A stretch of DNA of 64,000 nucleotides from a virus. Taxonomy: Duplodnaviria; Heunggongvirae; Uroviricota; Caudoviricetes. Shown here one piece after another: positions 30,387 to 46,532 of this stretch. The stretch covers positions 26,245-90,244 of IMG/VR virus record IMGVR_UViG_3300020577_006051; one strand, written 5' to 3'. The notes under the pieces were generated by a model. It saw nothing but the letters and a program-made list of their open reading frames with translations, did not search any database and was not told the origin of the DNA. Each line of letters starts with the position of its first letter. The first letter of the stretch is position 1. The position numbers and the translations under genes are program-made.

Positions 30387-30394
30387 GGATAGTT

Positions 30395-31222: not shown

Positions 31223-31622
31223 GAAGATCGGAAGTGAAGTAACATTTACTTTATTACCATCTACAAATATTGCGGTTAAACCTTCTGAAGGTCGTGGTCG
31301 CGGTGTATTTGCAGTTAAAGATATTAAAGCAGGTGATGTAATTGAAGCTGCACCCACAATCGATATTCCTTCTAAAGAAATTGCTTTCGTTAATGCTTCA
31401 AGATTGGCTCACTATATGTTTGAGGGTGTGTTCTCCGGTGAAGGAGTTATTGCTCTGGGTTATGCAAGTCTATATAACCATGATAAAAAATCGAATGCTT
31501 CTTGGGAGATGAACGACGGATTGATCGTTATTTCTGCCGACAAGAATATCAAAGCAGGTCAAGAGATTTTCTTAGATTATGGTTGGGGCAAAGAAATGCT
31601 CAAAAAATTAGGCATCAAATAA
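31161..31622 (+). CDS. SET-domain protein methyltransferase with basic N-terminal tail
   Basis: GRGVFAVKDIKAGDVI, YNHDKKSNA (NHxC-like) and EIFLDYG motifs. Confidence 0.7.
   Translation: MSKKNQKQKQSPKQKQKPKSKKIGSEVTFTLLPSTNIAVKPSEGRGRGVFAVKDIKAGDVIEAAPTIDIPSKEIAFVNASRLAHYMFEGVFSGEGVIALGYASLYNHDKKSNASWEMNDGLIVISADKNIKAGQEIFLDYGWGKEMLKKLGIK
31172..31219. repeat. imperfect (CAAAAG)n low-complexity tract
   Basis: about 8 hexamer-like units; encodes K-rich tails in two frames. Confidence 0.6.
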
Positions 31623-31631
31623 GGAGTAAGT

Positions 31632-32381
31632 ATGAAACAATTTCTTTTACCATTATTGATCTTAGCTACAGGTTGTACAGTCGTTAGTCCTGGTGAACGT
31701 GGCATCGGCATCTCTCAAGGTGAGATCAATAAAGAAGTTCGCAAGCCAGGTACCTATCTTTGGATCCCTCACTTTCGCGGTAGCGCTGTCATGGATGTTC
31801 AGATCCAGAAGAGCGACATCGAGTCTGGTGCAGCTACAAAAGACCAACAAGAGCTTATGACTAAAGTTGCCGTCAACTGGCAAATTGAAGAAAGCAAAGT
31901 GGTAGAGATCTACGAGAACTTAGGTAACCTACGAGCTGTACTAACAAACGTAATCGAGCCTCAAGTTCACGAAGTAATGAAAGCTTGTGTTTCGAAGATG
32001 TCCGCAGAAGAAGTGTTGTCGAAGCGTCAAGAACTTAAAGAACAGATGGATGCTGCACTCAAAGCACGTCTATCTCCTTACGGAATCACTATTCGCGACG
32101 TGTCGATCATCAACTTCGAGTTCGGTAAAGAGTATAAGAATGCTATTGAACAGAAGCAAGTTGCAGAGCAAAAAGCTAAGCAAGCTGAGTATGAAGCGCA
32201 AAAAGCAGAGCAAGATGCTCGTGCTGCGATCAATACAGCTCGTGGACAAGCTGAATCGCAGAAGTTAGTACAACAGACATTGACACCACTAATGATTGAG
32301 TTGAAGAAGGTGGAAAAATGGGATGGCAAACTACCGACGACAATCTTGGGCAACACAACCCCAATGATCAATGTGAAGTAA
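31632..32381 (+). CDS. SPFH/band-7 (prohibitin-like) lipoprotein
   Basis: lipobox LATGC; VVSPGERGIG band-7 start; long Ala/Gln/Glu coiled coil. Confidence 0.75.
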   Translation: MKQFLLPLLILATGCTVVSPGERGIGISQGEINKEVRKPGTYLWIPHFRGSAVMDVQIQKSDIESGAATKDQQELMTKVAVNWQIEESKVVEIYENLGNLRAVLTNVIEPQVHEVMKACVSKMSAEEVLSKRQELKEQMDAALKARLSPYGITIRDVSIINFEFGKEYKNAIEQKQVAEQKAKQAEYEAQKAEQDARAAINTARGQAESQKLVQQTLTPLMIELKKVEKWDGKLPTTILGNTTPMINVK

Positions 32382-32598
32382 CAGTTTCAGATAGAACTGT
32401 TTTTTCTAGTTTTACTAAGTCTACTCGCTGGGCACACAATGAGCTTCATAAGAAGTGCATCATAAAAGATAACCTCATGTGTGTCCTTCACCAGCTCGAG
32501 TGCATAGATATTGAAACATACGCTAAGTTCATCGAACATAACGAACAGACTGTGTTCGAGATCATGTTCAGTACGGGTAATTTGTTCAAGGGAACTTT

Positions 32599-32997
32599 AT
32601 GAATCAGGTGGGTGAATACATAGGTTGGTTAGGTGCTTTGTGTCTAGCTATATGCAGCTTACCGCAAGTGATTTATACTATTCGATACAAGTCAGCAGAC
32701 GGCATATCATGGGGATTCATACTGCTGTGGTTCGGCGGTGAGATCTTTACTCTAGCTTATTTATTCATGACTGGTCTTGCGACTTATCAACTGATCTTTA
32801 ACTATGGGTTGAACCTGATAGGACTAGGGATAATTCTCTACTACAAGATCAAGGAACGGTACGACGAGAAACAGAGACATAAAGATTATATTATGAGTCT
32901 GAACCAAGATGCTGCTTTCCACAATCTAATGGAAATGTTATTTTGCTTTGGTTCGATATCTCATAAAACTTTTAGTCGATACCTAGATAGAAGGTAA
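32599..32997 (+). CDS. PQ-loop-like small membrane protein
   Basis: SLPQVIYTIRYKSADGISW plus 3-4 TM helices. Confidence 0.5.
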   Translation: MNQVGEYIGWLGALCLAICSLPQVIYTIRYKSADGISWGFILLWFGGEIFTLAYLFMTGLATYQLIFNYGLNLIGLGIILYYKIKERYDEKQRHKDYIMSLNQDAAFHNLMEMLFCFGSISHKTFSRYLDRR

Positions 32998-32998
32998 C

Positions 32999-33175
32999 AT
33001 GGAACAATTTAAATGTCTAGCTTGCAAACATGAGTATAAAGCTAACCCTGGTCCGACACAATGCCCTAAGTGCAAACATCTATTGATCGAATGGGTGAGT
33101 TATGAAGAAAAAGAAAAAGCCAAAGAAGCCGAAAGTAAGAATTCCAGTACCGCCACCAACGATTCGTCACAAGTC
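32999..33175 (+). CDS. zinc-ribbon small protein (58 aa)
   Basis: unlisted ORF with CLAC...CPKC. Confidence 0.45.
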
Positions 33176-33213
33176 TAAGAAAGATTACAAGCGAGTCAAG
33201 AAAGTAGTAGTGG

Positions 33214-33534
33214 TTGAGGATGAAACGGGTGGGTGATATAGAAACACACGCTCTACTTCGCAGATTGCGAATCACTTATGGACATGATAGCGTGTACAGG
33301 TTAATGTCTATCTTGCATAGTTTAAGAGTGTCTGATCAATGGATTGGAAGAGACAATTTAGATACTTATCTAAGAAACATGGAAAACTCTGCTATTAAAA
33401 GATCTTCAGGTTTTCGAAAACTTTGGCTTCTATCTCAACAGAAGTTTGTTGATTTGGTTGGTGAGGTTGAGAATCCGCTTTTATCTTATCTTCTGGGGAA
33501 AGTTGTCTGTTTACTTCACAGTATGCGCAGATAG
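33214..33534 (+). CDS. hypothetical protein
   Basis: 106-aa ORF; conflicts with minus ORF 33395..33610. Confidence 0.3.
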   Translation: MRMKRVGDIETHALLRRLRITYGHDSVYRLMSILHSLRVSDQWIGRDNLDTYLRNMENSAIKRSSGFRKLWLLSQQKFVDLVGEVENPLLSYLLGKVVCLLHSMRR

Positions 33535-33610
33535 GGCACTTAGTCCACCAGCGTAACTTCGGATGTGGGGTCATGTATCCCCAAGAACATTCTCGGCAGA
33601 TACTGAACAT

Positions 33611-33853
33611 TTAAGTAATCTTTCCTGGACCTGTGGAGGTCGTTACGATGGCTTGCGTTAGGAGTGCATTGATGATTGTCTTGGTAACAGCAGCAGCTAC
33701 GGCCTCAGCTAACTTACCCTGTGATCCTTCAGCGCTCGAAGCGAAGTCCGAACCACCTGCAGATACTGTAGATGAAAACTTACTCTTCATCTCAGCCTTA
33801 ACTGCTTCTACTGCTTGCATTGCTATAACGTCTGGAACTAGTGGCATACGCAC
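33611..33853 (-). CDS. hypothetical Ala-rich protein
   Basis: 80-aa minus-strand ORF in a locally GC-rich patch. Confidence 0.3.
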   Translation of the reverse strand: MRMPLVPDVIAMQAVEAVKAEMKSKFSSTVSAGGSDFASSAEGSQGKLAEAVAAAVTKTIINALLTQAIVTTSTGPGKIT

Positions 33854-34236
33854 CTCACTTTATAACTATTATACAACACTATGAAACAAACATACTTAAT
33901 AAACGAAGAAACTCGCATACAAGCCGCTGACAAGATGCTGGACCTGTTGTCCGATCTGAATATAAGGCATGCAACCGTCTTTGGGATACCTAAGATGTTG
34001 AATTGGTTGGAACAGTTTAATGTTAAAGTATAATGTAGCACGACTACGAGCCTTTAAATTATTTATATTATTGAGTAAATTAGAGTTAAATCTTGTTGGA
34101 AGCTTAAATGTTTATGACGATAGTCTGAGAGATTGGCTAGACATAATGGGTGAACAATGAATAATCATACAGCTAGTCTTGCTAACTTATTATTCTTACT
34201 TAAGATCCACAAGATGGAAACTGAAGACTTTCTTAC

Positions 34237-34680
34237 ATGGAGAAAACAATGTCTAAGCTTGAGATCTACTGCGACGGTTCATCAGAAGGTAACTCAACAG
34301 GCTGCGGCGGATATGGATATGTAATTGTTCTAGATGGTGAACCTATCGGTCAGGGTTCTGGACATCTTCCCCAAGCAACGAACAACACTGCTGAGTTGAC
34401 TGCAGCTGTTAAGGGTATGCACTGCGCATTAGGATTGATCTCCTTGATGGAAACAAAACCAGAGGAAGTAAGTCTTGTGTCTGATTCAAAACTCGTCCTA
34501 GGGTACGCGGATGGATCATATAGGTGCAAGGCATTACATCTTGCCCCTTTATGTATCGATCTTCGTAAAGCCTACACCTTACTCAAAGCTAAGACTCGCT
34601 GGGTGAAGGGACACAATGGCGATCGCTTTAATGAAATGTGCGATAAATTAGCAAAAAATGCAAAAGAAATTGAAGAATAA
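34237..34680 (+). CDS. ribonuclease H (RNase HI-like)
   Basis: YCDGS, TNNTAELTA, SDSKLV and GHNGDRFNEMCDKLA carboxylate motifs. Confidence 0.85.
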   Translation: MEKTMSKLEIYCDGSSEGNSTGCGGYGYVIVLDGEPIGQGSGHLPQATNNTAELTAAVKGMHCALGLISLMETKPEEVSLVSDSKLVLGYADGSYRCKALHLAPLCIDLRKAYTLLKAKTRWVKGHNGDRFNEMCDKLAKNAKEIEE

Positions 34681-35141
34681 TGAAAACTTGTACTAAATGC
34701 AAAAGTCAAAAACCTGTTACTGATTTTTGTAAAAGAAATCGCTCAAAAGATGGTTTAAATCATTGGTGTAAACAATGTGTAAACATAAATAATAAAATTG
34801 TTATTTCTAATAATTTAGAAAAATATAGACAATTAAGTAGAGAATGGGATAAGAAAAACAGACCAAGACGTTTTGAAAGTGAAATAAAACATAAATTCAA
34901 CATAACGGTTGAAATTTATAATGAAATGTTGCAAAAACAGGATAATGCATGTGGAATATGTAAAGTTAAAACAATAGACTTAAATAAACGTTTAGCGGTT
35001 GATCATTGTCATCTTACTAATAAAGTAAGAGGATTATTGTGCGGTAAATGCAATATGGCATTAGGTCTGTTTAATGATGATTTAAAAATACTTAAAACTG
35101 CAATTAACTATTTAGGTCAAAATGACAGTGATCAAATATAA
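34680..35141 (+). CDS. recombination endonuclease VII-like
   Basis: CGICK ... VDHCHLTNKVRGLLCGKCNMALG aligns with T4 gp49 HxDHDH...RGLLCxxCN. Confidence 0.75.
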   Translation: MKTCTKCKSQKPVTDFCKRNRSKDGLNHWCKQCVNINNKIVISNNLEKYRQLSREWDKKNRPRRFESEIKHKFNITVEIYNEMLQKQDNACGICKVKTIDLNKRLAVDHCHLTNKVRGLLCGKCNMALGLFNDDLKILKTAINYLGQNDSDQI

Positions 35142-35696
35142 ACGAACTACTACATTTCGATGGGAAATGCAAGATTACGAAGTTTGCATAGATGATCACA
35201 TTAAAGTAAATATCTTATGCGATTTATTGCTAGCTTTCAGAATTGACTCTGCAGATCTACATTACACAAACATGATGAAGTTTATTATAAGGATGAGGAT
35301 GTGTTAGTGATTGGGCCACAGAAACATAACTTTGACTCTAAAGGACGATACATAACTGTTCGTAATATCGTTAGAGTCTACGTAAACAATTCTGCCAAAT
35401 TTGATCACGTAATGAGTTTAACAACCTTGCTTATGTTTCTTAACTTAAAAAGTTACGATCTTTATCACAACGATATCTGCAGGTTTTTGATTCGCAGAGG
35501 TTGCAAATGATAGTTGAATATTTAACGGCGCCAAAAACGAAACGTGATCAAATGCATCATTCAAGCTACGTTTTATGGCGTACTTTAATACTTCTTAAAG
35601 TTTTCCATATAAAATATGATCACGATTCTAGATCAGAGAGGTGGAGATGGGCTTCTAAGCTCATAGAAACTAGAAGCCCTGTTCTTACTATTAAAA

Positions 35697-37484
35697 TTAC
35701 TTTTTCTTAACGAAACTAACTTCACAAGATCCAGTTGCACAGTCATCTACTTCAGCTGCTTCAACTTTATACTGCTCGTTGAACTTAGCTTTACCTTCTT
35801 CAAGGCTCAGAGCTTTAAGTGGTGGTTCATGGATGACGCCTTTATCGTCTACGTATCCACGACTGTTCTCACGATAGAACGTTGTTCCTTTAAGCGAAGG
35901 CAGATATTCCAACCATAGGTCGTTCATCTCTTCGATAGGATAGTCTTCGGCGATGTTGATCGTCTTAGATACTGCGTTGTCAACATGCTTCTGAATGATA
36001 CGTTGAACTTCCATGTGATCGCGAACAGAGATATCGCGTGCGCCAACGAAGTGATCAACAGACTTACCTTCCTTCATGAACTGAACGAACAATGGGTGTA
36101 AGCAAAGCTCAACCTTACGCTCATCCTTGTCCCAGTAGCGACGCTCATAAGCTGGAGCAAACATCGGCTCGATGCCAGAGCTACAGTTACCAGAGAGAAT
36201 CGATACTGTTCCTGTAGGTGCCTGAGTTAGGATCGCGCAGTTGCGGATACCGTGTTCAGCAACCAATGAGCGAACTTTAGGTCCCATGCGCTTCATGAAG
36301 CCGGACTCAACGTGTTTGTCAGGTTGGCAGAGCGGAAACGCTCCCTTCTCCATAGCGAGCATTACAGAAGCTTCGTATGAAGTCTTAGCGATGAACTTAT
36401 AGAGCTTGTCGATAAACTTGTTACCATCTTCTGAACCGTAGCGAACACCGAGCATAGCAAGCATGTCAGCAAGCCCAGTTGTTCCTAGACCAATGCGACG
36501 CAAGCTGTGTGACTTAGCCTTCATCTCAGGAAGTGGGTAAGTGTTAACAGTTAGAACGTTGTCCAAGAAGCGAACTGCAGTGCGAATGGTATCGCCCAGA
36601 GTAGCATAGTCGATGTCGCCGTCTTTGACGAAGCGAGTCAACACCAGATGTCCTAGGCAGCAGCAGTCGTAAGCGCTCAACGCGATCTCACCGCATGGGT
36701 TTGTAGTTACTAAAGGTTCGATGTAAGAAATGTTACTTTCACTCTCAACTAATTCCCAGTTCAAGAAACCAGGTTCAGCAGAGTTGTAAGCGTTAGTTAC
36801 GATGGTGTTCCAAAGCTCTTTAGCCTTGACCACGCGCTTGTACTTACCTTTCCACGACAGTTCCCAATCACCGTCTTCTTTGACTGCTTTGATGAATGCC
36901 TTCGTGTCTTTACTGCGAACAGATACGTTAGCATGGGTAAGCTCACCTTTGACCAACTTAGCGTTCAAGAACTCTTCGATATCTGGATGGTCGAGGTCTA
37001 GACTAAACATGAGAGCGACGCGACGTTGTCCACCGTTCTTAACTGGCTTAGCGCAAGAGTCGATTAAGCGCATCAATTCAACTGCGCCAGGTGCAACACC
37101 TTTCTGGTCAGAGATCATTGCACCTTTAGGACGGATGTCGCTGAAGTCGTCTCCGCAACCGCCACCAGTCATGGACGTAACGATCATGTTGTGAGCGGAC
37201 TTGCCCCAACCTTCTTTAGAATCTTTGTTTGGATCGAGAACGAAACAGTTCAAAAGCTGTGGATTAGTGCGGCCGGAGTTGTACCAGATGCGTCCACCAG
37301 GAACAAACATATTGTTCGATAAGATGTCGAAGAATCTTTGCTCGTACTGTTTTTGTTTTTCAGGGTATTCAGCGAGAGCCATCTGACGAGCCACGCGCTG
37401 GCAAGCTTCGGACCAACTTTCCTCTGGCGTGAATGCGTAACGGTCTTTAAAGATCTTTAGGGAAAAGTCTTCTGGATTAAACAA
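35697..37484 (-). CDS. ribonucleotide reductase catalytic subunit, class II-like
   Basis: LLNCFVL and TNPCGEIAL active-site Cys/Glu, C-terminal CATGSC pair, no ATP cone; 595 aa; no nrdB in window. Confidence 0.65.
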   Translation of the reverse strand: MFNPEDFSLKIFKDRYAFTPEESWSEACQRVARQMALAEYPEKQKQYEQRFFDILSNNMFVPGGRIWYNSGRTNPQLLNCFVLDPNKDSKEGWGKSAHNMIVTSMTGGGCGDDFSDIRPKGAMISDQKGVAPGAVELMRLIDSCAKPVKNGGQRRVALMFSLDLDHPDIEEFLNAKLVKGELTHANVSVRSKDTKAFIKAVKEDGDWELSWKGKYKRVVKAKELWNTIVTNAYNSAEPGFLNWELVESESNISYIEPLVTTNPCGEIALSAYDCCCLGHLVLTRFVKDGDIDYATLGDTIRTAVRFLDNVLTVNTYPLPEMKAKSHSLRRIGLGTTGLADMLAMLGVRYGSEDGNKFIDKLYKFIAKTSYEASVMLAMEKGAFPLCQPDKHVESGFMKRMGPKVRSLVAEHGIRNCAILTQAPTGTVSILSGNCSSGIEPMFAPAYERRYWDKDERKVELCLHPLFVQFMKEGKSVDHFVGARDISVRDHMEVQRIIQKHVDNAVSKTINIAEDYPIEEMNDLWLEYLPSLKGTTFYRENSRGYVDDKGVIHEPPLKALSLEEGKAKFNEQYKVEAAEVDDCATGSCEVSFVKKK

Positions 37485-37661
37485 CTTGATCTCCTTGTAG
37501 TTTAATGTAGCAGTGTCATAGTTAAATTGTTAAGCGGAAATATAAGTCTGGTAAGAGTTCGATTGTGTGTTGTAGGTTTTACGGATGTATCTCATATTCG
37601 TCCTCACAATCAAATTGGTGTATGTCTTATACTCAATTGGTAGAATAAAATTATAACATAA

Positions 37662-38168
37662 ATGAGAGCAAAACAAATGCCAGTAATTTACTTTTTAGCT
37701 AGCCTTATCATACATATAGGGCTAATTTTAGGTATTGCCTCTATTCAGCAAACTCAACAAAAACAACAGGCAGAACAGAAACAAGGTCAAGGCCAACCGC
37801 CGCGAGAATCTGTCAAAGTAAAAATCATCGAGAAACCAAAAGAAGAAAATAAAGTTAAGATGAAGATCGCAACTAAGAAAGAACCTAGTAAGACTAAAGT
37901 AGCTGAACCAGAAGTTAAGAACGAAGAGAAATGTCCACAGTTCTACTACGGAATTGGTATCTATACGGATCCAAGCTTGTGTGTCGTGACTAAAGTTTAT
38001 CCAGGTTACTCAGCCGATCGTTCTGGAATAAAACCAGGCGATATGATTTTGATCCCTAACTGTGGATCGATTCGCGGTACAAGAGAAGAGGAATTCGATA
38101 TGACATTGATCCGCCAAGGCGAGATCATTAATTTAAAGATTAATAGGGAGAAAATCTGTGAAGGTTGA
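37662..38168 (+). CDS. membrane-anchored PDZ-domain protein
   Basis: N-terminal TM, Q/K-rich linker, then GIGIYTD...YSADRSGIKPGDMIL PDZ. Confidence 0.55.
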   Translation: MRAKQMPVIYFLASLIIHIGLILGIASIQQTQQKQQAEQKQGQGQPPRESVKVKIIEKPKEENKVKMKIATKKEPSKTKVAEPEVKNEEKCPQFYYGIGIYTDPSLCVVTKVYPGYSADRSGIKPGDMILIPNCGSIRGTREEEFDMTLIRQGEIINLKINREKICEG

Positions 38169-39396
38169 AGATTTTGCTAGAAAAAATACAGTATCTACAA
38201 AAGCAGGTGGAACCCAAAGATGGGAAGTATATGATTCAGCTAAATTAGAGGAATATTTGGCTATTTTTAATTATAAAATTGGACCATTAGCAACCAAACT
38301 AAACCAATCTTACTCCATGATTAGAAGATTGGTAACTTCTAGTGGATTAAAAGAAAAGTGTGATATAAAGCAGCAATCTATAAAAGGCGGAAGACCAAGA
38401 TCTACTAATATTGATAAATTTGGATATGTTTATGCTGAACCAGAACATGACTATATAGATCAAAATGGAGATAAAAAAAGAAAACATTTACATCTAGTTA
38501 TTGCTGAAAAAAAACTTGGACGACCATTAAATGCAAATGAAGTTGTTCATCATATAAATTTAGATAAAGAAGATAATAGACCTGAAAATCTCTATATATG
38601 TGATCAATCTACACACCGCAAGGTACATCAAAATTTGGAACATTTAGCTGCTAGATTAGCCCAAATAGGACAAATAGAATTTGTTCCTGAATTGCAAGAA
38701 TATGTTTTGGTTCAAAATCCACTTAAGTTACAAAAACATATACAAGGTGGTTTTGTTAAAGTAGTCGATGTTCTTGGATCTGACGCAACTGTTGTTAATT
38801 CTGCAAGAGTTTCATTTGGCAAATCAGTTTCTAACATTCGAGATCAAGATAAAAAGCTATTAGATTATTTAGCAAAAAATGGCCATACAAGTCCATTTAG
38901 ACATTGTTATGTTCAGTTACATGTAAAGGCACCAGAGTTTGTTGCTAGACAATGGTATAAACACATAGTCGGTACAGAGTATTCATTTAAAGATCAACCA
39001 TGGAATGAAATTTCTGGACGATATGTTGAGTATGATTTTTCTACTTGGGAACCAGAACATTTACGAAAGCAATCAGCAGATAAAAAACAAGGATCTTCTG
39101 ATGAATATGTTGAACATGAAGCGGAATTAATTGAGCAATATAAAAAGTTTACAAATGACGCTTTTAAATTTTATGAATACTTAATAAGTCAAGGTGTTTG
39201 TAAGGAGCAAGCTAGAACAGTTTTGCCTTTAAATTTTTATACAGAATGGTATTGGACTGCAAGTCTACAATCAATTCAACATTTTGTTAAATTAAGGACA
39301 GACCTACATGCTCAAATTGAAATACAAGATTTTGCATGGGCAGTTAACGAAATGATGGGGCAAATATTTCCAAATGCATGGAAAGCTTTAAGTTAA
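38158..39396 (+). CDS. thyX: HNH endonuclease fused in frame to a flavin-dependent thymidylate synthase (ThyX) domain with non-canonical RHR motif
   Basis: aa 120-160 HNH (VVHHINLDKEDNRPENLYICDQSTHRKVH); aa ~196-412 collinear with T. maritima ThyX; RHR replaced by KHI plus 8-aa insertion. Confidence 0.75.
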   Translation: MKVEDFARKNTVSTKAGGTQRWEVYDSAKLEEYLAIFNYKIGPLATKLNQSYSMIRRLVTSSGLKEKCDIKQQSIKGGRPRSTNIDKFGYVYAEPEHDYIDQNGDKKRKHLHLVIAEKKLGRPLNANEVVHHINLDKEDNRPENLYICDQSTHRKVHQNLEHLAARLAQIGQIEFVPELQEYVLVQNPLKLQKHIQGGFVKVVDVLGSDATVVNSARVSFGKSVSNIRDQDKKLLDYLAKNGHTSPFRHCYVQLHVKAPEFVARQWYKHIVGTEYSFKDQPWNEISGRYVEYDFSTWEPEHLRKQSADKKQGSSDEYVEHEAELIEQYKKFTNDAFKFYEYLISQGVCKEQARTVLPLNFYTEWYWTASLQSIQHFVKLRTDLHAQIEIQDFAWAVNEMMGQIFPNAWKALS

Positions 39397-39574
39397 TACT
39401 TTTTTAAAGAAATTTTTTAAATTATGTTGTTGGATTTTTAACAACCTTAAGTTTAGTATTGGCTTTAGGTTTGTTTGTTTTATGTTTATCACTACCGGGA
39501 CCACGAAGACCAGCAGCATGCAAGGCCATGGGCCGCGCAGCGAACGTTAGAGAGAGTAGGACTTTTGAACTGGA

Positions 39575-39964
39575 TTACGCGCTTGCAATAATATTGTATT
39601 TTAGGAGAACATCGGGGTCATCTTTTAACATTTCAATCATACGCAGTGCTGGGCCACTTGGTACGTTTTTACCTGATTCCCAGGCTTCGACAGTCTTGAG
39701 AGAAACCCCTAGAGACATCGCAAAAAGAGCTTGTGAAAAATCAAGAGACATTCGTATTTTTCTAATTTCATTTGGAGGGAATAATTGAACGGGGTTCACA
39801 TGAGGTTTTCTAACTCTCACGCCTTTTACGTTCTCCCCTTTCTCATACGAAATAGCTTGATTTAAGCCACGCATGAGGCTTTCAAAGGCTTCACTTCTTT
39901 TTGGTTGTTGTTTTTCTTTTTTCATCTCTTTGAAAGACTTGATTAAGGACTCTAATTTGCTCAT
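39575..39964 (-). CDS. XRE-family HTH regulator, MqsA-like C-terminal domain
   Basis: IRKIRMSLDFSQALFAMSLGVSLKTVEAWESGKNVPSGPALRMIEML matches the MqsA/XRE HTH; no Zn finger; minus strand. Confidence 0.7.
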   Translation of the reverse strand: MSKLESLIKSFKEMKKEKQQPKRSEAFESLMRGLNQAISYEKGENVKGVRVRKPHVNPVQLFPPNEIRKIRMSLDFSQALFAMSLGVSLKTVEAWESGKNVPSGPALRMIEMLKDDPDVLLKYNIIASA

Positions 39965-40071
39965 GATTTTGATCTCCGTTACTTATATTCTACCACGATA
40001 TGCACTATTCAACATGCATTGAGTATAATAGCATTTGTCCCGAAAAGATTAATGTTTAAAAGGGGATACCC

Positions 40072-40776
40072 ATGGAAACGATGCCTCTCATTCTACCAAA
40101 AAGCGAAAGTGACGAGATCTGGGTCACAGAGTTTAATCCGCAATCTGCTCAAGAATTTAGAGACCGAGTCTTGGAAGAAGCCAAGAAAGGTCCAGATCGC
40201 CCTATCGTTATCTACATCGACAGCTACGGTGGTCAAGTTGATTCCTTGGCCAAGATGATTGCTACACTAGATGAAGTATCGAATCCTATCGTTACTTGCT
40301 GCATGGGCAAAGCAATGAGCTGTGGTGCTATGTTGTTAGCTCATGGCGATGTCCGTTTCTGTGATAGTCATAGCCGAATTATGGTTCATAAAGTTAGTGC
40401 AATGGCAATGGGTAACGTAGACGATATCGTCACAGACACGGAAGAGATTTCTCGTCTAAATGAATATTGGATGAATGTATTGGCAACGGACTGCGGAATC
40501 AAGGGTGGATATCAGGAATTAAGTGAGATCTTACGTTCTAAGGATGGTCATGAACGTTATTTCACACCGCAAGAAGCTAAGACATTTGGTCTCATCGACA
40601 TTATTGGATTACCAAAGGTTGTTGCTGATACGGTCTACGATGTGGCTACTATTCCTGTCAAAACATCTCCATATAAAGAAAGCAAGTGGCGGGCAAAATA
40701 TAGATCAGAACCCGAAAAGAAAGCACCCCAAACGAAAACTCTTAAAAAGAGTAAAACAAAAGGAGCTAAGAAATGA
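40072..40776 (+). CDS. ClpP-family serine protease
   Basis: IVIYIDSYGGQVDS ... CMGKAMSCGAMLLA ... IMVHKVS; K-rich tail. Confidence 0.8.
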   Translation: METMPLILPKSESDEIWVTEFNPQSAQEFRDRVLEEAKKGPDRPIVIYIDSYGGQVDSLAKMIATLDEVSNPIVTCCMGKAMSCGAMLLAHGDVRFCDSHSRIMVHKVSAMAMGNVDDIVTDTEEISRLNEYWMNVLATDCGIKGGYQELSEILRSKDGHERYFTPQEAKTFGLIDIIGLPKVVADTVYDVATIPVKTSPYKESKWRAKYRSEPEKKAPQTKTLKKSKTKGAKK

Positions 40777-41117
40777 GTGATGATGTTAAGAACCAAGAAG
40801 AGAAAGTTCGCAGCCACAATCTAAAAGAAGTTGTGATTTCTCCAGATGATGCTAAGGCAGCATTTGAATTCTGGCCTCAGTTTAACGTTCCACCTATGGA
40901 AGGCTTAAAAGAAGCTTTTCAACAGTTTCAGAACGATCCAACACTTGAGAATCAAAATTATCTCAAGTACATGGTCACTAAAGCTATCGCAACAACGCAG
41001 CACGAAGCATTCCTAGATCCAACCTTTGAGAAAGTTCGCTCTGAGTGCGCTGATGTAAGTTACGAGATGGCGTTCGACCGTGACTTCCAAAACATCATCG
41101 GCGAGGATAAAACCTAA
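40773..41117 (+). CDS. conserved phage protein, family B (paralog of 8643..8927)
   Basis: see 8643..8927. Confidence 0.6.
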   Translation: MSDDVKNQEEKVRSHNLKEVVISPDDAKAAFEFWPQFNVPPMEGLKEAFQQFQNDPTLENQNYLKYMVTKAIATTQHEAFLDPTFEKVRSECADVSYEMAFDRDFQNIIGEDKT

Positions 41118-41315
41118 ATGGGATTTCACGAAGACGACAGAATTCGCAATAAGAACCGTGCTGCGAATGCCGCTTATGCTAAGTATCAAGAGTATAAAGA
41201 TAAGAAGTTGTCTGACTCTGATATTCTTCAAGAATTAGAGAAGACAGAAAACTCTAACTATGCGGTGGTACATGAAATTCGTAAGATCGTTGCTGCAAAA
41301 AGCGGCCAAAAGTAA
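41118..41315 (+). CDS. hypothetical protein
   Basis: 65-aa ORF. Confidence 0.4.
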   Translation: MGFHEDDRIRNKNRAANAAYAKYQEYKDKKLSDSDILQELEKTENSNYAVVHEIRKIVAAKSGQK

Positions 41316-42045
41316 ATTAGCTAAAGCAGCTTTGATTGGGTTATCTGTATTTGGATACATTACATTTACATTAAGAGCTCAAGAGTTACACGACAACTAC
41401 TTATTCTCTTATGTAGGTACGAGCGTATACTTTGTTATGTCACCCCAAGTTCAAGGTGGTGGAAGTGCTTTCACTTTGAGATATAAAGGTAAAACTTACG
41501 GTATAACCAATGCACATGTATGTAGAGCGTTAGCTGGTAAACCTCTAGTACTGATAAGTGACTTTTACGGAACATATATCACTTCGCAGAAGTTGATCTC
41601 TAAGAAATATGACCTATGCTTGATCGAAGCACCACAGGACGATCATGGTTTGTCAGTTTCTACTGACATCTCACAGAATCAAACTGTGTGGGCTGTCGGT
41701 CATCCGCAAGGTTGGCCACTAACAGTATCTAATCCTGGTCATGTCATCATGGCTAAAACATGGGAAATACCTGCTATCCAAGGTCCGTGTCCAGATACCT
41801 TAGATAAATCTGTCTATCAAACTAGACAAAATCAGTTTGGTCAAGTGTGCACGCTTACTTCGAACTATGTTCAAACAACAGTATTCATCGATTTTGGAAG
41901 TTCTGGATCACCTATGGTAGATTTTTACGGAAACGTAGTTGGTGTTAATACCATAAAAGATGGGTTTAACTACGCTAATTTTATTACATCTGAAGATGTA
42001 GTTAATTTCTTAGAAGAAGAGGTTTTAAATGTCCCTACCAAATAA
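41260..42045 (+). CDS. membrane-anchored trypsin-like serine protease
   Basis: TNAHVC (His), DLCLIE (Asp), GSSGSPMVD (Ser); N-terminal TM. Confidence 0.6.
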   Translation: MRWYMKFVRSLLQKAAKSKLAKAALIGLSVFGYITFTLRAQELHDNYLFSYVGTSVYFVMSPQVQGGGSAFTLRYKGKTYGITNAHVCRALAGKPLVLISDFYGTYITSQKLISKKYDLCLIEAPQDDHGLSVSTDISQNQTVWAVGHPQGWPLTVSNPGHVIMAKTWEIPAIQGPCPDTLDKSVYQTRQNQFGQVCTLTSNYVQTTVFIDFGSSGSPMVDFYGNVVGVNTIKDGFNYANFITSEDVVNFLEEEVLNVPTK

Positions 42046-42478
42046 AAGTATTAAACCAGCACTCATTATCACTGGCGTATTCTTTACAACGGTGTTTTTA
42101 GCAGCATGGAAAGTAGTTGACTTGTTTTATGCTCTATTCACGGCCACAATGTGTCCTTAAACGAAGAAGATCAGAAACAGTTAGAATGCATATATAAAGA
42201 AATCAACGACCAAAAGTTAATAAAGAAATTACGACTTAGGGGTCATAAGATTGCTTTACTTGAACTTCTTCATGATTTAGAATTAACAACAATAATGCCT
42301 TACTTTTTATGGTTTTCAGATTTGGAGTAAGTCATGTTGAGTAGCACCAGGCGATTTCAAAGACAAAAATTATCACTATTTAGTTTACTGTTTAAATTCA
42401 AGATCGCGCAACCTGGTGGACCCGATTGGAATTACGCAAATGAATTGCATCAAGATGTAATAAAATGGATGAGCAAAC

Positions 42479-43390
42479 ATGATTACTAAACCTATGCTTT
42501 CTGGATCTCTTGAGGATGTTAGTAAGTTAAAGTTTCCGGTATTAGCTTCTGCTAAGCTGGACGGTATCCGCTGTCTGATGGTTGGTGGCAAATGCCTCAG
42601 CCGAACATTCAAACCAATTCCTAATAAGTTCATTAGAGAGTGGATGGAAGCAAACATCCCAGACGGATTCGACGGTGAGCTAGTGTCTCGCAACGCTGAC
42701 GGTTCAATGCGGACCTTCAACGAGATCCAAGGCGACGTCATGCGAGAAGAGAATGAACCTAACTTTGAATTCCAAGCATTCGACCGCGTCACAGATTCAT
42801 TGACTGAACCTTTCGAGAAACGCTTTGATAAGTTACGTTTCCTAGTTAAAACTATCAATCTGAAACATCTAGTATTGGCAGAGCACGTTCTGATCAATAA
42901 CATAGAAGAATTGGATGCTTACGAAGAGAAGTGTCTTGCTGAAGGCTACGAAGGCATCATGGTTCGCTCTCTGTCTGGTCCGTACAAGTGTGGACGAGCT
43001 ACTGAGAAGGAAGGAACTCTACTTAAAGTTAAGAGATTCTTAGACTCTGAAGCTGTCATCTTAGGTTTTGAAGAACAACTAGAGAACACCAACGAAGCTG
43101 AAAAAGATGCTTTCGGTCGGACCAAGCGTTCTAGTCACCAAGATGGAATGGTCGGTAAAGGAACGTTAGGTAAGTTCCTGGTTCGTGAGATCGGTTCCAC
43201 TCCGTGGAAAGATCGTGAGTTCGCCATCGGAACCGGCGAAGGTTTAACCCAAGTCCTACGACAAGAGATCTGGGACAACAGGGAAGCTTACGTAGGTAAG
43301 ATCGTCACTTACAAGTATCAAATGCATGGAATTAAATCATTGCCCAGATTGCCGATTTGGAAAGGTTTTAGAGATGAACGAGATATGTAA
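42479..43390 (+). CDS. ATP-dependent DNA ligase (small T7/PBCV-type)
   Basis: motif I AKLDGIRC, III FDGELV, IV EGYEGIMVR, V LLKVKRF. Confidence 0.85.
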   Translation: MITKPMLSGSLEDVSKLKFPVLASAKLDGIRCLMVGGKCLSRTFKPIPNKFIREWMEANIPDGFDGELVSRNADGSMRTFNEIQGDVMREENEPNFEFQAFDRVTDSLTEPFEKRFDKLRFLVKTINLKHLVLAEHVLINNIEELDAYEEKCLAEGYEGIMVRSLSGPYKCGRATEKEGTLLKVKRFLDSEAVILGFEEQLENTNEAEKDAFGRTKRSSHQDGMVGKGTLGKFLVREIGSTPWKDREFAIGTGEGLTQVLRQEIWDNREAYVGKIVTYKYQMHGIKSLPRLPIWKGFRDERDM

Positions 43391-43414
43391 TTCTTATGGT
43401 TTAAAGGAAAAAGA

Positions 43415-43627
43415 TTGTTGATGGAACCAGGTAAGAAGTATAAAGCAAATCTTATCTATAGAGAAAAAGAAGAGCATCTTGATAACTTGAGAATTCTATT
43501 GACGTCTTTATTTAAAGGTCGAGAACTTGACCTATTTGATAGACAAGCAATAGTTCGAGATTACGATAAACACGGTTTTGTACATAGAATAACTGGACTT
43601 CACTACTACATAGAGGATGATCTATGA
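43415..43627 (+). CDS. hypothetical protein
   Basis: 70-aa ORF. Confidence 0.45.
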   Translation: MLMEPGKKYKANLIYREKEEHLDNLRILLTSLFKGRELDLFDRQAIVRDYDKHGFVHRITGLHYYIEDDL

Positions 43628-43902
43628 TGTTTCCGGAGCAGCGTCAGAAAGCGATCAGACATCTAGGTCAGATCTATCAACAGCACTTAAATAATAACCA
43701 CTACGAAACACAGCGCAAGTTTAACGATTGGATGTTTACTGGATTTGCGGGTGTTGGTTCATTTTCAGATAGCAAAATCATTAAAGAACTTAACTGTTTT
43801 GCCCATGCACAAAGAGAAGGTAGAGCTGGTGCATACTACCACCAGATGTATGAAGTTGAGCAATTGTTAGTTGATATTGAAATAGATAGGATGTTAACAT
43901 GA
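43624..43902 (+). CDS. hypothetical protein
   Basis: 92-aa ORF, ATGA-coupled. Confidence 0.5.
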   Translation: MMFPEQRQKAIRHLGQIYQQHLNNNHYETQRKFNDWMFTGFAGVGSFSDSKIIKELNCFAHAQREGRAGAYYHQMYEVEQLLVDIEIDRMLT

Positions 43903-44468
43903 GTGAAGCAGTGTACGTGGTTTTTGACAACGAAACAGGCGGCTTAACTAAAGACTGTTCACTATTGACAAGTCACTTCTTCATCTGCGACAAAGATCTA
44001 GAGATCATCGACGAGCTTGGTCTAGCTATCAAGCCTAACGATCATCAACCGTATCGTGTGCAAGCGACAGCTCTAGCCGTTAACAAGATCGACCTGATCG
44101 AACACGACAAGATCGCCATCACTCAGTCTGAAGCTGCTCAAAAGCTGTTCTTATTCCTTAAAAAACATTCAGACAGCGGCAAGATTAAGTTGATTCCTGT
44201 CGGCCACAACGTGAGCTTCGACATTGAATCTGTCAACGAACATTTGATCAGTAAGCCAAACTGGGACCAATTCGTTTCCTACAGGAAGTTAGATACTGGG
44301 ACGATCATGCAGTACCTAAAGCTCAAAGGTACAGTTCCAAACGATAAGAGTAGCTCTCTAGGTTCAAGTGCAGAATATTTTGGGGTAACATTTGAGGGTG
44401 AAGCGCACACAGCCCGAGCTGATGCGTTGATGTGCATTAAACTCTTGAAGAAAATGAAGGCTGTATGA
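43899..44468 (+). CDS. DnaQ-like 3'-5' exonuclease (DEDDh)
   Basis: VVFDNETGGL (Exo I), HNVSFDIES (Exo II), HTARADALM (Exo III). Confidence 0.7.
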   Translation: MSEAVYVVFDNETGGLTKDCSLLTSHFFICDKDLEIIDELGLAIKPNDHQPYRVQATALAVNKIDLIEHDKIAITQSEAAQKLFLFLKKHSDSGKIKLIPVGHNVSFDIESVNEHLISKPNWDQFVSYRKLDTGTIMQYLKLKGTVPNDKSSSLGSSAEYFGVTFEGEAHTARADALMCIKLLKKMKAV

Positions 44469-44767
44469 TCTCTGGCAAATTCTCCAAACAGATCGAATGT
44501 CTCAAGCGTCTAAGTGAGCTTACAACTTCAATGGATGAAATCTTAGACTTCTTGTTCACTGAAAAGGTCGCTACTAAAGATGAGTGTTCTGCTGTCAAGA
44601 GATCAACAAACCAACACAAAGAACTAGTGATATTATTACAAACTCTTAAGGCTAACGATAAATTCCAACTATTAGAATACGAGTGGACAATACTTCCCGT
44701 AGAGAGAATTTGTATAACAATTGTAACAGATAAAACTCGAAAAGAATTCGATTATTCATCATACTGA
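44465..44767 (+). CDS. hypothetical protein
   Basis: 100-aa ORF. Confidence 0.5.
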   Translation: MISGKFSKQIECLKRLSELTTSMDEILDFLFTEKVATKDECSAVKRSTNQHKELVILLQTLKANDKFQLLEYEWTILPVERICITIVTDKTRKEFDYSSY

Positions 44768-44774
44768 GGTCTAG

Positions 44775-44978
44775 ATGCGCTGGAAAGACGGTTGTTTAAA
44801 TCACGGACAGATCAATCATTTTATAAAAGATACTTGGAGAGTTTCAAAGCATTTAGAACATTTCTCAAATGAGTGCTTAACTATCATAGATAAGAGATCT
44901 AGAATTCGCACTGGAAATCAAAAACAGGCAGGTTTAACTTTCAAGACCAATTGGCTATTCAATCATTACGGAACATAA
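44775..44978 (+). CDS. hypothetical protein
   Basis: 67-aa ORF. Confidence 0.4.
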   Translation: MRWKDGCLNHGQINHFIKDTWRVSKHLEHFSNECLTIIDKRSRIRTGNQKQAGLTFKTNWLFNHYGT

Positions 44979-45045
44979 CAGCTTTTGCAATGAATCCGAA
45001 AAGATAAACAGTAATCGATAGAATTCAACAGATTGGAGCATACTA

Positions 45046-46056: not shown

Positions 46057-46065
46057 GGAGGATTT

Positions 46066-46529: not shown

Positions 46530-46532
46530 TCT

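What the first reader, a model, noticed from the sequence alone, without database searches (positions are those of the whole stretch)
38158..39396. HNH nuclease fused in frame to a ThyX whose RHR motif is KHI plus an 8-residue insertion
Residues ~196-412 align collinearly with T. maritima ThyX (VVDVLGSDATVVNSARVSFGK, HTSPFRHCYVQLHVKAPEFVARQW, NEISGRYVEY, VLPLNFYTEWYWTAS, LRTDLHAQIEIQDFAWAV). The substrate-binding RHR is K268-H269-I270 (38959-38967) and 8 residues are inserted before the conserved Ser. The first ~190 residues are a complete HNH endonuclease with no stop or start between the domains. This may be a homing endonuclease that lost its stop, with ThyX translated as a fusion or from an internal TTG near 38707. 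The altered motif raises the question of whether it still makes dTMP. A second, more degenerate ThyX-fold gene sits at 63302.
Basis: partly seen in the sequence, partly recalled or inferred. Interest (0 to 1): 0.65.

Follow-up and report, generated by a model that had tools for sequence, protein, structure and literature searches.

The report
HNH nuclease fused to phage ThyX
An uncultured phage makes its flavin-dependent thymidylate synthase (ThyX) only as the tail of a homing-type HNH nuclease, a fusion kept in about 20 diverged relatives, while the odd "KHI" motif is the normal signature of a large ThyX subfamily.

Summary
ORF 38158..39396 (+) is one 412-aa frame with a complete HTH+HNH_3 nuclease (residues 1-186), an 11-residue linker and a complete ThyX (198-412). 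RHR is replaced by K268-H269-I270, and 8 residues are inserted before the conserved Ser.

Two points change the interpretation.

1. The KH[I/V] motif plus insertion is not a defect of this gene. All 117 of the top 120 homologues that could be scored have it, fused or not, as do chromosomal ThyX genes in 275 GTDB species. It always co-occurs with Glu to Arg at the T. maritima E58 position. The protein passes the NCBIfam thyX equivalog cutoff, so nothing argues against dTMP synthesis.

2. The fusion is old and selected, not a recent stop-codon loss. Nineteen 90%-identity clusters share the architecture at 50-75% identity. Synonymous sites are saturated, HNH catalytic residues are invariant, and no internal start is conserved.

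Free-standing relatives of the same HNH end exactly at the junction. Two of them sit directly upstream of other thyX-type genes. One relative (P0018) has lost the HNH by an in-frame deletion but keeps the HNH's start and first 18 codons.

Best reading: a thyX-associated homing-type nuclease has become translationally welded to thyX. This is a new variant of a known kind, of moderate interest.

The parts
38145..38150 (+). Shine-Dalgarno-like AGGGAG, 7 nt upstream of the GTG start. The same GGGAG-N7-GTG arrangement is kept in the HNH-less relative L001.
   Evidence: Sequence read; upstream regions compared.
38158..39396 (+). Single ORF of 412 aa plus stop: the HNH-ThyX fusion gene.
   Evidence: Nineteen homologous clusters have the same two Pfam domains.
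38158..38340 (+). Residues 1-61: N-terminal beta-hairpin plus a three-helix HTH-like DNA-binding region of the HNH module. The first 18 codons (MKxxDFAxK...SGG) are shared with free-standing HNH relatives and are retained in the HNH-less derivative P0018.
   Evidence: AF2 model: E7-12, E19-24, H27-36, H41-47, H52-61, block pLDDT 85-90. N-termini of P0161, P0191, P0214 and P0018.
38443..38715 (+). Residues 96-186: HNH_3 nuclease core (Pfam match 109-148) and C-terminal beta-hairpin. H131, H132, N134, D139, N140, N144 and H157 are invariant in 18 fused proteins. Free-standing relatives P0149, P0148 and P0161 end within a few residues of this point.
38707..38709 (+). It has no SD and is not conserved in homologues.
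38716..38748 (+). Residues 187-197: poorly conserved linker (mean pairwise identity 0.28) joining the HNH C-terminus to the first ThyX strand.
38749..39393 (+). Residues 198-412: complete ThyX (flavin-dependent thymidylate synthase) domain of the KH-type subfamily.
   Evidence: Pfam Thy1 1.4e-43. TIGR02170 145.9 bits against 87.9. PDB 6j61 1e-46. Foldseek versus T. maritima ThyX E about 2e-14, TM(target) 0.66-0.72.
38899..38901 (+). R248, at the position of T. maritima E58 (SPFRH versus TPFEH). It covaries with the KHx motif and may compensate for the lost third Arg of RHR (inference).
   Evidence: Alignment. Covariation table: 207 KHx/R, 2 KHx/G, 8 RHR-or-THR/E.
38959..38967 (+). K268-H269-I270, in place of the RHR of the ThyX motif.
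38977..39000 (+). About residues 274-281 (EYSFKDQP): the 8-residue insertion between the KHI motif and the conserved NEISGRY (S286, R288, Y289).
   Evidence: gap in the PDB alignments; conserved as G[ST][ED]Y[ST]FKDxxW in close relatives, 1-14 residues long across the subfamily.

Best explanation
The gene encodes one polypeptide in which a complete homing-type HNH_3 endonuclease (HTH + HNH, residues 1-186) is welded through a short linker to a complete, probably fully functional ThyX of the 'KH-type' subfamily.

Shown:
- Translation can only start at the HNH's own GTG/SD. No conserved start exists at the junction, so ThyX is made as the C-terminal part of the fusion.
- Both halves are under purifying selection and have co-diverged.
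- Close free-standing relatives of the HNH lie immediately upstream of other thyX-type genes.
- The HNH can be lost only in frame, as in P0018, which keeps the HNH's initiation region.

Inferred:
- The ThyX part tetramerises, binds FAD and methylates dUMP to dTMP like other ThyX. The RHR to KH(I/V) change is offset by Arg at the E58 position.
- The HNH part is still an active site-specific nuclease. It descends from a free-standing homing endonuclease that targets the 5' end of thyX, and it probably still cuts HNH-less thyX alleles of competing phages, so that the HNH-thyX cassette is copied in.
- The fusion makes expression of a useful gene depend on the selfish one. That would explain why the arrangement has survived far longer than homing endonuclease genes usually do.
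For: - One uninterrupted ORF with an SD and GTG start.
- Nineteen clusters carry PF13392+PF02511 at 50-75% identity and 72-100% coverage. HNH catalytic residues are invariant.
- The HNH module has pN 0.25-0.44 against saturated pS 0.56-0.88.
- HNH and ThyX distances correlate: Mantel r = 0.62, 0 of 2000 permutations as high.
- No conserved in-frame start or SD exists at the junction in 7 genes.
- P0018 (245 aa, 13 contigs, same RNR|thyX|ClpP synteny) lacks residues about 19-186. It keeps GGGAG-N7-GTG and MKLSDFAKKEHKESKSGG and nests inside the fused clade. A 7-nt repeat TGGTGGC flanks the module in its closest fused relative, L005.
- Free-standing relatives P0148, P0161 and P0191 match at 33-50% over the full length. 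P0148 overlaps the start of a Thy1-family gene. P0161 is followed by TTG-LRVKLISITPDAEKTI at the contig end. They interleave with fused modules in the HNH tree.
- Other HNH types occupy the same spot: P0024 (EndoVII/HNH type, fused), L115 and Kuravirus HNH-AP2.
- ThyX side: TIGR02170 is passed. H243, S245, R264, Q265, S286, R288, Y289, R353 and R380 are conserved. KH-type ThyX occurs in 275 GTDB species.
- The only other thymidylate-synthase-like gene in the window is closest to (d)CMP hydroxymethylases, not ThyA.
Against: - No biochemical data exist for any KH-type ThyX or for this HNH.
- No cleavage site is known.
- Synonymous sites are saturated, so recent lateral spread of the cassette relative to its flanks could not be shown. 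Four-fold-site identity is only slightly higher in HNH-thyX than in flanking genes, on small n.
- Long vertical co-divergence of HNH and ThyX fits domestication as well as continued homing.
- Bootstrap support for free-standing HNHs nesting among fused ones is moderate (51-83%).
- The AF2 model is uncertain in the motif/insertion loop (pLDDT <50 at 274-289), so the compensation by R248 is untested.
- I did not verify that KH-type ThyX is the sole thymidylate synthase in any complete cellular genome.
Confidence: 0.6

Rival explanations
1. Domesticated bifunctional enzyme. The HNH is no longer a selfish homing nuclease. It has been recruited for a phage function, for example degrading host DNA to feed nucleotide pools, excluding competing phages, or tethering ThyX to DNA. 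The ThyX tetramer would serve as a scaffold.
For: The fusion persists across saturated synonymous divergence. The HNH is under purifying selection and co-diverges with ThyX. Homing endonuclease genes normally decay once fixed. The gene sits among nucleotide-metabolism genes: NrdJ, RNase H, ligase and a hydroxymethylase-like gene.
Against: The HNH is dispensable in at least one lineage seen on 13 contigs (P0018). It has been displaced by another HNH-type ORF in L115. Free-standing relatives sit at the 5' end of unrelated thyX subtypes, which is typical of target-associated homing genes.
Confidence: 0.25
2. Two proteins from one ORF. ThyX is translated on its own from an internal start (TTG 38707 or similar), or is released by proteolysis. 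The continuous frame would be incidental.
For: An in-frame TTG exists at 38707. P0014 has ATG preceded by AGGA at the junction. The phage encodes ClpP and trypsin-like proteases nearby.
Against: There is no SD before TTG 38707 and no start codon conserved at the junction in 7 genes. The frame stays open in 19 diverged clusters, whereas free-standing relatives carry a stop there. The HNH-less P0018 uses the HNH's start and leader rather than an internal one. No internal promoter-like site was found above chance.
Confidence: 0.1
3. Neofunctionalised ThyX. Because RHR is KHI and the loop is longer, the domain no longer makes dTMP. It might methylate another nucleotide (as PolB does with UMP) or act in DNA hypermodification.
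For: The motif deviates from RHRX7S. T. maritima R165 is Gln here. The same phage has a hydroxymethylase-like ThyA homologue and a second ThyX-fold ORF, which hints at modified DNA. No KH-type enzyme has been characterised, and none has a solved structure.
Against: The same motif, insertion and E58R swap are found in chromosomal ThyX of 275 species across Vampirovibrionales, Ignavibacteria, Holophagaceae, Nitrosopumilales and Planctomycetota. The protein scores 58 bits above the thyX equivalog cutoff. All dUMP-contact residues are conserved. PolB (4p5a) is a far weaker match (2e-16) than bona fide ThyX (1e-46).
Confidence: 0.07
4. The HNH segment is an intein or an intron-encoded ORF that is removed from the product after transcription or translation.
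For: thyX genes do carry inteins in mycobacteriophages. In Vibrio phage 1.097.O thyX is split around an HNH gene.
Against: No Hint/intein domain was found. The segment starts at the initiator codon. The junction is ...VLVQN|PLK with no Cys/Ser/Thr nucleophile. No Rfam intron family occurs anywhere in the window. The whole segment is conserved protein-coding sequence, with no room for a ribozyme core.
Confidence: 0.01

Closest known systems
Free-standing HNH homing endonuclease genes placed next to their target gene in phages; specifically the HNH(-AP2) gene that overlaps the start of thyX in Kuravirus coliphages such as Ptacy1532
   Same: An HNH_3-class nuclease lies immediately 5' of thyX on the same strand, and the Kuravirus ThyX is also KH-type (KHQ, TPFRH). 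HEG signatures described for phages apply here: variable presence, in-frame deletions, and position next to essential genes (PMC10448857).
   Different: In Kuravirus the two genes are in different frames with their own stop and start. Here there is one frame, no ThyX start, and a different DNA-binding module (N-terminal HTH instead of C-terminal AP2). No deposited phage record covers 80% or more of the fusion.
Free-standing members of the same HNH lineage (P0148, P0161, P0191; metagenomic)
   Same: They are 33-50% identical over the whole 186-residue module, including the MKxxDFA N-terminus. P0148, and probably P0161, sit directly upstream of Thy1-family genes.
   Different: They have their own stop codon. 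The downstream thyX is of another subtype (THR/RHR-like, no insertion) and starts in another frame with an 8-12 nt overlap.
Mobile elements inside thymidylate synthase genes: ThyX inteins of mycobacteriophages; thyX interrupted by an HNH gene in Vibrio phage 1.097.O; the T4 td group I intron with I-TevI (the last from my own knowledge)
   Same: Thymidylate synthase genes are recurrent targets of homing elements. The nuclease ORF is embedded in the reading context of the host gene.
   Different: Those elements are removed by protein or RNA splicing, or they split the gene. Here nothing is removed and the nuclease stays attached to the enzyme.
In-frame fusions of homing endonuclease ORFs to mitochondrial host genes (e.g. 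rps3-LAGLIDADG, atp6-ORF fusions in fungi; from my own knowledge, not checked here)
   Same: A selfish nuclease ORF shares a reading frame with a host gene without splicing.
   Different: The nuclease families differ (LAGLIDADG/GIY-YIG). Those fusions are usually at the 3' end or internal, in organelles rather than phages, and do not involve ThyX.
Canonical ThyX (T. maritima TM0449, T. thermophilus Thy1; PDB 1kq4, 6j61)
   Same: The match is collinear over the full length, about 40% identity in the aligned region by my reading of the alignment, with the same fold. H53, R74, Q75, S88, R90, Y91, R147, R174 and H178 equivalents are conserved.
   Different: R78K, R80I, E58R and R165Q substitutions, an 8-residue insertion before the Ser loop, and a 197-residue N-terminal extension.

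Membership tests
ThyX / flavin-dependent thymidylate synthase (Pfam Thy1, NCBIfam TIGR02170) | Scores above the curated family thresholds over the full domain | tested here: met
   PF02511 149.3 bits against 24.8, profile positions 2-191 of 191. TIGR02170 equivalog 145.9 bits against 87.9.
ThyX / flavin-dependent thymidylate synthase | Literal ThyX signature RHRX7S (Myllykallio 2002, as quoted in PMC2826268) | tested here: not met
   The sequence is K268-H269-I270-X15-S286. The same deviation is shared by every one of 209 unique KHx motif contexts collected, including chromosomal genes of 275 species. The signature as written therefore excludes a whole subfamily rather than marking this gene as aberrant.
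ThyX / flavin-dependent thymidylate synthase | Residues that contact dUMP and shield the reaction (Mtb R87, S105, R107, Y108, R199 = Tm R74, S88, R90, Y91, R174; PMC6514825), plus Tm H53 and R147 | tested here: met
   R264, S286, R288, Y289, R380, H243 and R353 are aligned and invariant in 18 fused proteins.
ThyX / flavin-dependent thymidylate synthase | ThyX fold | tested here: met
   AF2 model against PDB by Foldseek: the top 50 hits are all ThyX, E about 2e-14, TM(target) 0.57-0.72. The motif loop itself is low-confidence.
ThyX / flavin-dependent thymidylate synthase | FAD binding and dUMP to dTMP activity; homotetramer | not testable with these tools
   Needs expression, thyA complementation and an enzyme assay.
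HNH_3 endonucleases (beta-beta-alpha-metal nucleases) | Pfam threshold and conserved His/Asn catalytic motif | tested here: met
   PF13392 39.5 bits against 24.8. Sixteen PHROG families matched, thirteen of them annotated 'HNH endonuclease'. VHHxNLDKxDNxxxNL...H is invariant (H131, H132, N134, D139, N140, N144, H157). The model shows two strands (128-132, 145-149) followed by helix 150-169, block pLDDT 89-93.
Homing endonuclease gene (free-standing type) | Presence/absence polymorphism at the same locus among related genomes | tested here: met
   L001-L004 (P0018) lack the HNH in the same RNR|thyX|ClpP synteny as the window, L005, L199 and L200. P0018 nests within the fused clade. Here the absence arose by deletion and is not an ancestral empty site.
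Homing endonuclease gene (free-standing type) | Consistent association with one conserved target gene across unrelated backgrounds | tested here: met
   The fused gene occurs in at least three genomic contexts (window type, L116, L201). Free-standing relatives lie next to other thyX subtypes. Other HNH types sit at the same junction.
Homing endonuclease gene (free-standing type) | More recent common ancestry of the element (plus co-converted flank) than of the surrounding genome | tested here: inconclusive
   ThyX is 81-84% identical between relatives, against 45-61% for ClpP, ligase and RNase H. Four-fold-site identity is near the random expectation everywhere: 0.35-0.51 against 0.15-0.43, with 0.33 expected. 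The gene is the most AT-rich 1.2-kb stretch but one in the window (0.3 percentile) and lies 1-7 GC points below its flanks in 6 of 6 fused loci.
Homing endonuclease gene (free-standing type) | Site-specific cleavage of the element-less allele and gene conversion | not testable with these tools
   Needs cleavage assays and co-infection or population data.
Intein | Hint domain blocks; Cys/Ser/Thr at the first intein residue and at the +1 extein residue; internal position in the host protein | tested here: not met
   There is no Hint or intein Pfam match. The segment begins at the start codon. The junction reads ...EYVLVQN-PLKLQK with no nucleophile.
Group I/II intron-encoded endonuclease | Ribozyme core flanking the ORF | tested here: not met
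   Rfam 15 finds no family at gathering threshold anywhere in the window. The whole segment is conserved coding sequence.

The most novel reading that the evidence does not exclude
The fusion is an 'addiction' strategy for a selfish gene. A homing-type HNH nuclease has taken over the only translation-initiation signals of a useful phage gene (thyX). Nonsense or frameshift decay of the nuclease would then also abolish ThyX, and only rare precise in-frame deletions can remove it. As a by-product, the nuclease is displayed four-fold on the ThyX tetramer, which could turn a nicking HNH into a double-strand cutter. If so, this is an intein-like persistence solution that needs no splicing chemistry. 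It would explain an unusually long-lived homing endonuclease lineage.
Probability: 0.3. Interest if true: 0.65.

Novelty: new variant of a known kind. Interest (0 to 1): 0.4.

Why it matters
Homing endonuclease genes are expected to cycle through invasion, fixation, decay and loss. Here one lineage has stayed intact across saturated synonymous divergence while fused to the gene it is associated with. If the fusion itself protects the nuclease from decay, it is a third route to persistence for selfish nucleases, beside introns and inteins, and it can be tested with simple constructs.

On the practical side, the work shows that the textbook ThyX signature RHRX7S misses a large, taxonomically wide subfamily. 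That subfamily has KH[I/V], a longer loop and Arg at the E58 position. It has no solved structure or characterised member, which matters for annotation filters and for ThyX inhibitor or mechanism work that assumes RHR-mediated FAD binding.

For the finding as written, the main message is deflationary. The motif change is ordinary for this subfamily.

Tried and rejected
- DNA similarity to deposited phages gave no match. The protein search of the same collection found no record covering 80% or more of the fusion, and no close KH-type match to the motif region.
- IMG/VR scan: 23 ThyX loci, none fused.
- JGI metagenome scan: only three fused or partial loci.
- The word-indexed search with the HNH module alone returned only 8 proteins and missed the known fused ones. 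The exhaustive HMMER search was needed.
- The listing of cluster members gave no organism names.
- Intron and intein readings were rejected.
- A synonymous-site test for recent transfer of the cassette was inconclusive because of saturation.
- The apparent in-frame HNH-ThyX tblastn match in Kuravirus (query residues 134-411) proved to be two overlapping genes in different frames.
- L168, which looked like HNH+ThyX with an insert, is an ordinary thyX with an unrelated HNH downstream.
- hhalign of ORF 63302 against a ThyX profile was uninformative (probability 5.9%). The fold search was what supported the ThyX fold.
- Literature searches found no description of an HNH-ThyX fusion or of KH-type ThyX biochemistry in the held library.
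- The promoter/terminator scan showed nothing above chance.
- The first tree script timed out.
Full report
**1. What is there**

The window holds one open reading frame at 38158..39396 on the + strand, 412 codons plus stop. It starts at GTG 38158, seven nucleotides after AGGGAG (38145-38150). It overlaps the stop codon of the upstream PDZ-domain ORF (37662..38168) by 11 nt.

Pfam finds HNH_3 at residues 109-148 (4e-10) and a full-length Thy1 domain at 202-406 (1.4e-43). PHROGs gives the thymidylate synthase family phrog_85 plus many 'HNH endonuclease' families. NCBIfam's thyX equivalog model scores 145.9 bits against a cutoff of 87.9.

The HMMER alignment to solved ThyX structures (T. thermophilus 6j61, 1e-46; T. 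maritima 1kq4, 5e-40) is collinear from residue 195 to 411. It places K268-H269-I270 opposite R78-H79-R80, with eight extra residues (about 274-281) before NEISGRY.

**2. The KHI motif is a subfamily signature, not a lesion**

Of the 120 best homologues in a 5.8-billion-protein search, 117 could be scored. All 117 carry KH followed by a non-Arg residue (mostly I or V) and an insertion of 8-13 residues, whether or not they are fused to an HNH.

A scan of one genome per GTDB species with two subfamily peptides found 275 species with such a gene. They include Vampirovibrionales/Melainabacteria (among them Vampirovibrio chlorellavorus NCIMB 11383), Ignavibacteria, Holophagaceae, Thaumarchaeota/Nitrosopumilales and Planctomycetota. 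Many of these genes lie on megabase contigs. NCBI annotates members simply as FAD-dependent thymidylate synthase. Kuravirus coliphages also have a KH-type ThyX (KHQ, one-residue insertion).

Across 219 distinct motif contexts collected here, the KHx motif co-occurs with Arg at the position of T. maritima Glu58 (207 R, 2 G). The eight RHR/THR sequences all have Glu there. The sample is biased toward KH-type sequences, but both PDB references fit the pattern.

A review of ThyX structures states that the RHR residues H-bond the FAD phosphates and ribityl. The first Arg additionally contacts the flavin ring and dUMP (PMC6514825). In this protein the first Arg is a conservative Lys. All other listed dUMP contacts and the Tyr lid are conserved: R264, S286, R288, Y289 and R380, plus H243 and R353.

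My inference is that the guanidinium lost at position 80 is supplied from position 58 (R248). This is untested, because the AF2 model is unreliable in that loop. No KH-type enzyme has a solved structure, and I found no biochemical study of one.

The other thymidylate-synthase-like gene in the window (58949..59740) is much closer to CMP/dCMP hydroxymethylases (4e-18, 9e-18) than to ThyA (7e-6). It fails all NCBIfam thymidylate synthase cutoffs. ThyX is therefore the phage's only plausible dTMP synthase.

**3. The fusion is conserved and selected**

Nineteen clusters (P0001-P0017, P0019, P0020) carry both Pfam domains at 50-75% identity. Seventeen of them cover 99-100% of the query; P0016 and P0020 are truncated. 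They come from Logan, ENA, JGI and NCBI metagenome assemblies.

Several loci share the synteny RNR(-)|HNH-thyX|...|ClpP|trypsin-like|ligase with the window (L005, L199, L200). Others (L116, L201) sit in different contexts.

In an 18-sequence alignment the HNH signature residues are invariant (H131, H132, N134, D139, N140, N144, H157). Mean pairwise identity by region is as follows:

| Region | Mean pairwise identity |
|---|---|
| HTH part | 0.40 |
| HNH core | 0.62 |
| Linker | 0.28 |
| ThyX | 0.67 |

Between six genes with DNA in hand, synonymous differences are saturated (pS 0.56-0.88). Non-synonymous differences are 0.25-0.44 in the HNH module and 0.11-0.28 in ThyX. The HNH is thus under purifying selection and is not a decaying leader. 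HNH and ThyX distances are correlated (Mantel r = 0.62; 0 of 2000 permutations reach it).

No start codon or SD is conserved at the junction. The window's TTG 38707 has no counterpart in most relatives. No promoter-like site stands out.

**4. Where the HNH came from and how it is lost**

An exhaustive HMMER search with residues 1-190 finds 16,391 HNH_3 relatives at E<=1e-3. Only three reach E<=1e-30: two representatives of the fused family and a free-standing 196-aa protein, P0161. Together with P0148 (190 aa) and P0191 (200 aa), these free-standing proteins match the module from the MKxxDFA N-terminus onward. The more distant P0149 ends ...EYVLVEG* exactly at the junction. P0148 and P0161 end a few residues past it; P0191 runs about 14 residues further.

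P0148 overlaps by 8 nt the start of a Thy1-family gene of another subtype, with THR in place of RHR and no insertion (Pfam 1.2e-15). P0161 is followed, after an AAGGAGG, by TTG-LRVKLISITPDAEKTI at the contig end. To my eye this looks like a ThyX N-terminus, but 16 residues are weak evidence.

In a neighbour-joining tree of the module, the free-standing proteins fall among the fused ones, with bootstraps of 51-83%.

P0018 is seen on 13 contigs up to 149 kb, in the same synteny. It is a 245-aa ThyX that is 81% identical to the window's. It begins with the same GGGAG-N7-GTG and MKLSDFAKKEHKESKSGG, then continues directly with QGPKLDHRIGDGFV. Because that N-terminus belongs to the HNH family, and P0018 nests inside the fused clade, it is an in-frame deletion of the HNH rather than an ancestral empty site. 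In L005, its closest fused relative, the module is flanked by the 7-nt repeat TGGTGGC.

Two other loci show different EndoVII/HNH-type ORFs at the same junction:
- P0024 is fused in frame to a KH-type ThyX.
- L115 has a 94-aa ORF overlapping a thyX that still carries the vestigial C-terminus of the first HNH.

In deposited phages, Kuravirus has an HNH-AP2 gene overlapping the thyX start. Vibrio phage 1.097.O has thyX split around an HNH gene. Mycobacteriophage ThyX carries inteins. The 5' edge of thyX is evidently a recurrent landing site for nuclease genes.

**5. Mechanism proposed**

Shown:
- ThyX here can only be translated from the HNH's start, as a 47-kDa fusion.
- Both parts are maintained by selection.
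- The HNH belongs to a lineage that is physically associated with thyX genes and is variably present.

Inferred:
- The ThyX part works as an ordinary FAD-dependent thymidylate synthase.
- The HNH part remains an active, sequence-specific nuclease of homing type.
- The fusion protects the nuclease gene from the usual decay, because most inactivating mutations would also remove ThyX. Only in-frame deletions such as P0018 escape.

The main rival is that the nuclease has been domesticated for a phage function. It fits the long co-divergence equally well and cannot be excluded without cleavage data.

A test for recent lateral spread of the cassette was inconclusive. ThyX is far more similar between relatives (81-84%) than the flanking genes (45-61%), but four-fold sites are near random for all genes. 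The gene is unusually AT-rich: 31.7% GC against 39% for the window (0.3 percentile), and below its flanks in all six fused loci. This is compatible with foreign origin but does not prove it.

Intein and intron readings are rejected.

**6. Comparison and novelty**

The parts are known: ThyX, HNH_3 homing-type nucleases, and nuclease genes abutting or interrupting thymidylate synthase genes.

What I did not find is an in-frame, unspliced HNH-ThyX fusion conserved as a family. It is absent from 50,697 deposited phage records (no record covers 80% or more of the protein), from IMG/VR and from the searchable literature. I file it as a new variant of a known kind.

The motif question that motivated the finding is answered in the ordinary direction.

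**7. Side observations**

- ORF 63302..63829 is a ThyX-fold protein without any ThyX motif.
- A hydroxymethylase-like ThyA homologue lies at 58949..59740, followed by an EndoVII/HNH ORF.
- A related contig carries dCMP deaminase and UDG-family genes just beyond the homologue of ORF 63302.
- Together these suggest that the phage modifies its pyrimidines.
- NrdJ next to the fusion is a GC-rich island (47-50%), and the RNR class differs among syntenic relatives.

Noticed in passing
window 58949..59740 (+): A 263-aa ThyA-superfamily protein (Pfam PF00303, 44 bits) that fails all NCBIfam thymidylate synthase cutoffs. It is closest to CMP 5-hydroxymethylase MilA (5jnh, 4e-18) and T4 dCMP hydroxymethylase (1b49, 9e-18); ThyA scores only 7e-6. 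It is probably a pyrimidine hydroxymethylase, so the phage may carry modified cytosine or uracil in its DNA.
   Followed up: partly
window 59737..60180 (+): An EndoVII/HNH-type ORF (phrog_1035 2e-16; weak Pfam HNH_5) overlapping the end of the hydroxymethylase-like gene by 4 nt. It matches the same PHROG families as the N-terminal domain fused to ThyX in P0024. Both thymidylate-synthase-superfamily genes of this phage therefore have a nuclease ORF attached or abutting.
   Followed up: partly
[not shown]
   Followed up: partly
L202 9878..11297 (related contig that carries an identical copy of the 63302 ORF, so this lies beyond the window's 3' end): A dCMP deaminase-like gene (337 aa, with a MafB19-deaminase domain) and a UDG-family gene (137 aa) lie 1-2.5 kb downstream of the ThyX-fold ORF. 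With the hydroxymethylase-like gene, this resembles a T4-style pyrimidine-modification and dUMP-supply module.
   Followed up: no
window 35697..37484 (-): Class II (B12-dependent) ribonucleotide reductase NrdJ (TIGR02504, 468 bits). Its GC content is 47-50% against 39% for the window, a compositional island directly beside the AT-rich HNH-thyX gene. Syntenic relatives carry different RNRs at this position (class I alpha+beta in L199), and the RNRs are only 25-38% identical between relatives.
   Followed up: partly
window 37662..38168 (+): A 168-aa ORF with a hydrophobic N-terminus, a Q/K/E-rich low-complexity stretch and a C-terminal PDZ domain (2.7e-5). Its stop overlaps the GTG start of the fusion, which suggests translational coupling. 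It is conserved upstream of thyX in L001 (41% identity) but absent in L005, L199 and L200.
   Followed up: no
window 39575..39964 (-): An HTH_3 / MqsA-antitoxin-like ORF (129 aa) on the opposite strand, between thyX and clpP. This slot holds different genes in each syntenic relative: 367-aa and 189-aa ORFs in L001, 133-aa and 395-aa ORFs in L005, and a FlgM-like ORF in L200. It is a variable region next to the nuclease gene.
   Followed up: no
L007 2206..3334 (Escherichia phage Ptacy1532, Kuravirus): Cultured coliphages of this genus have a KH-type ThyX (TPFRH...QKHQVGFSWNEMSRRY: KHQ, one-residue insertion). An HNH-AP2 gene overlaps its start in another frame. These phages are a tractable system for testing whether KH-type ThyX is active.
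   Followed up: partly
L115 127..1168 and L118 737..2026: A second, unrelated EndoVII/HNH-type nuclease occupies the same thyX 5' junction. In L118 (P0024) it is fused in frame. In L115 it is a 94-aa ORF overlapping a thyX that still encodes the vestigial C-terminus (VEYVPELEEYVYVG) of the first HNH family. This is evidence of successive nuclease-gene replacement at one site.
   Followed up: partly
window 1..64000: No tRNA gene and no Rfam family at gathering threshold in 64 kb. Almost all ORFs are on the + strand. An identical copy of one window protein (P0154) is on record from a 96.8-kb JGI contig, so the phage genome is at least that long.
   Followed up: no
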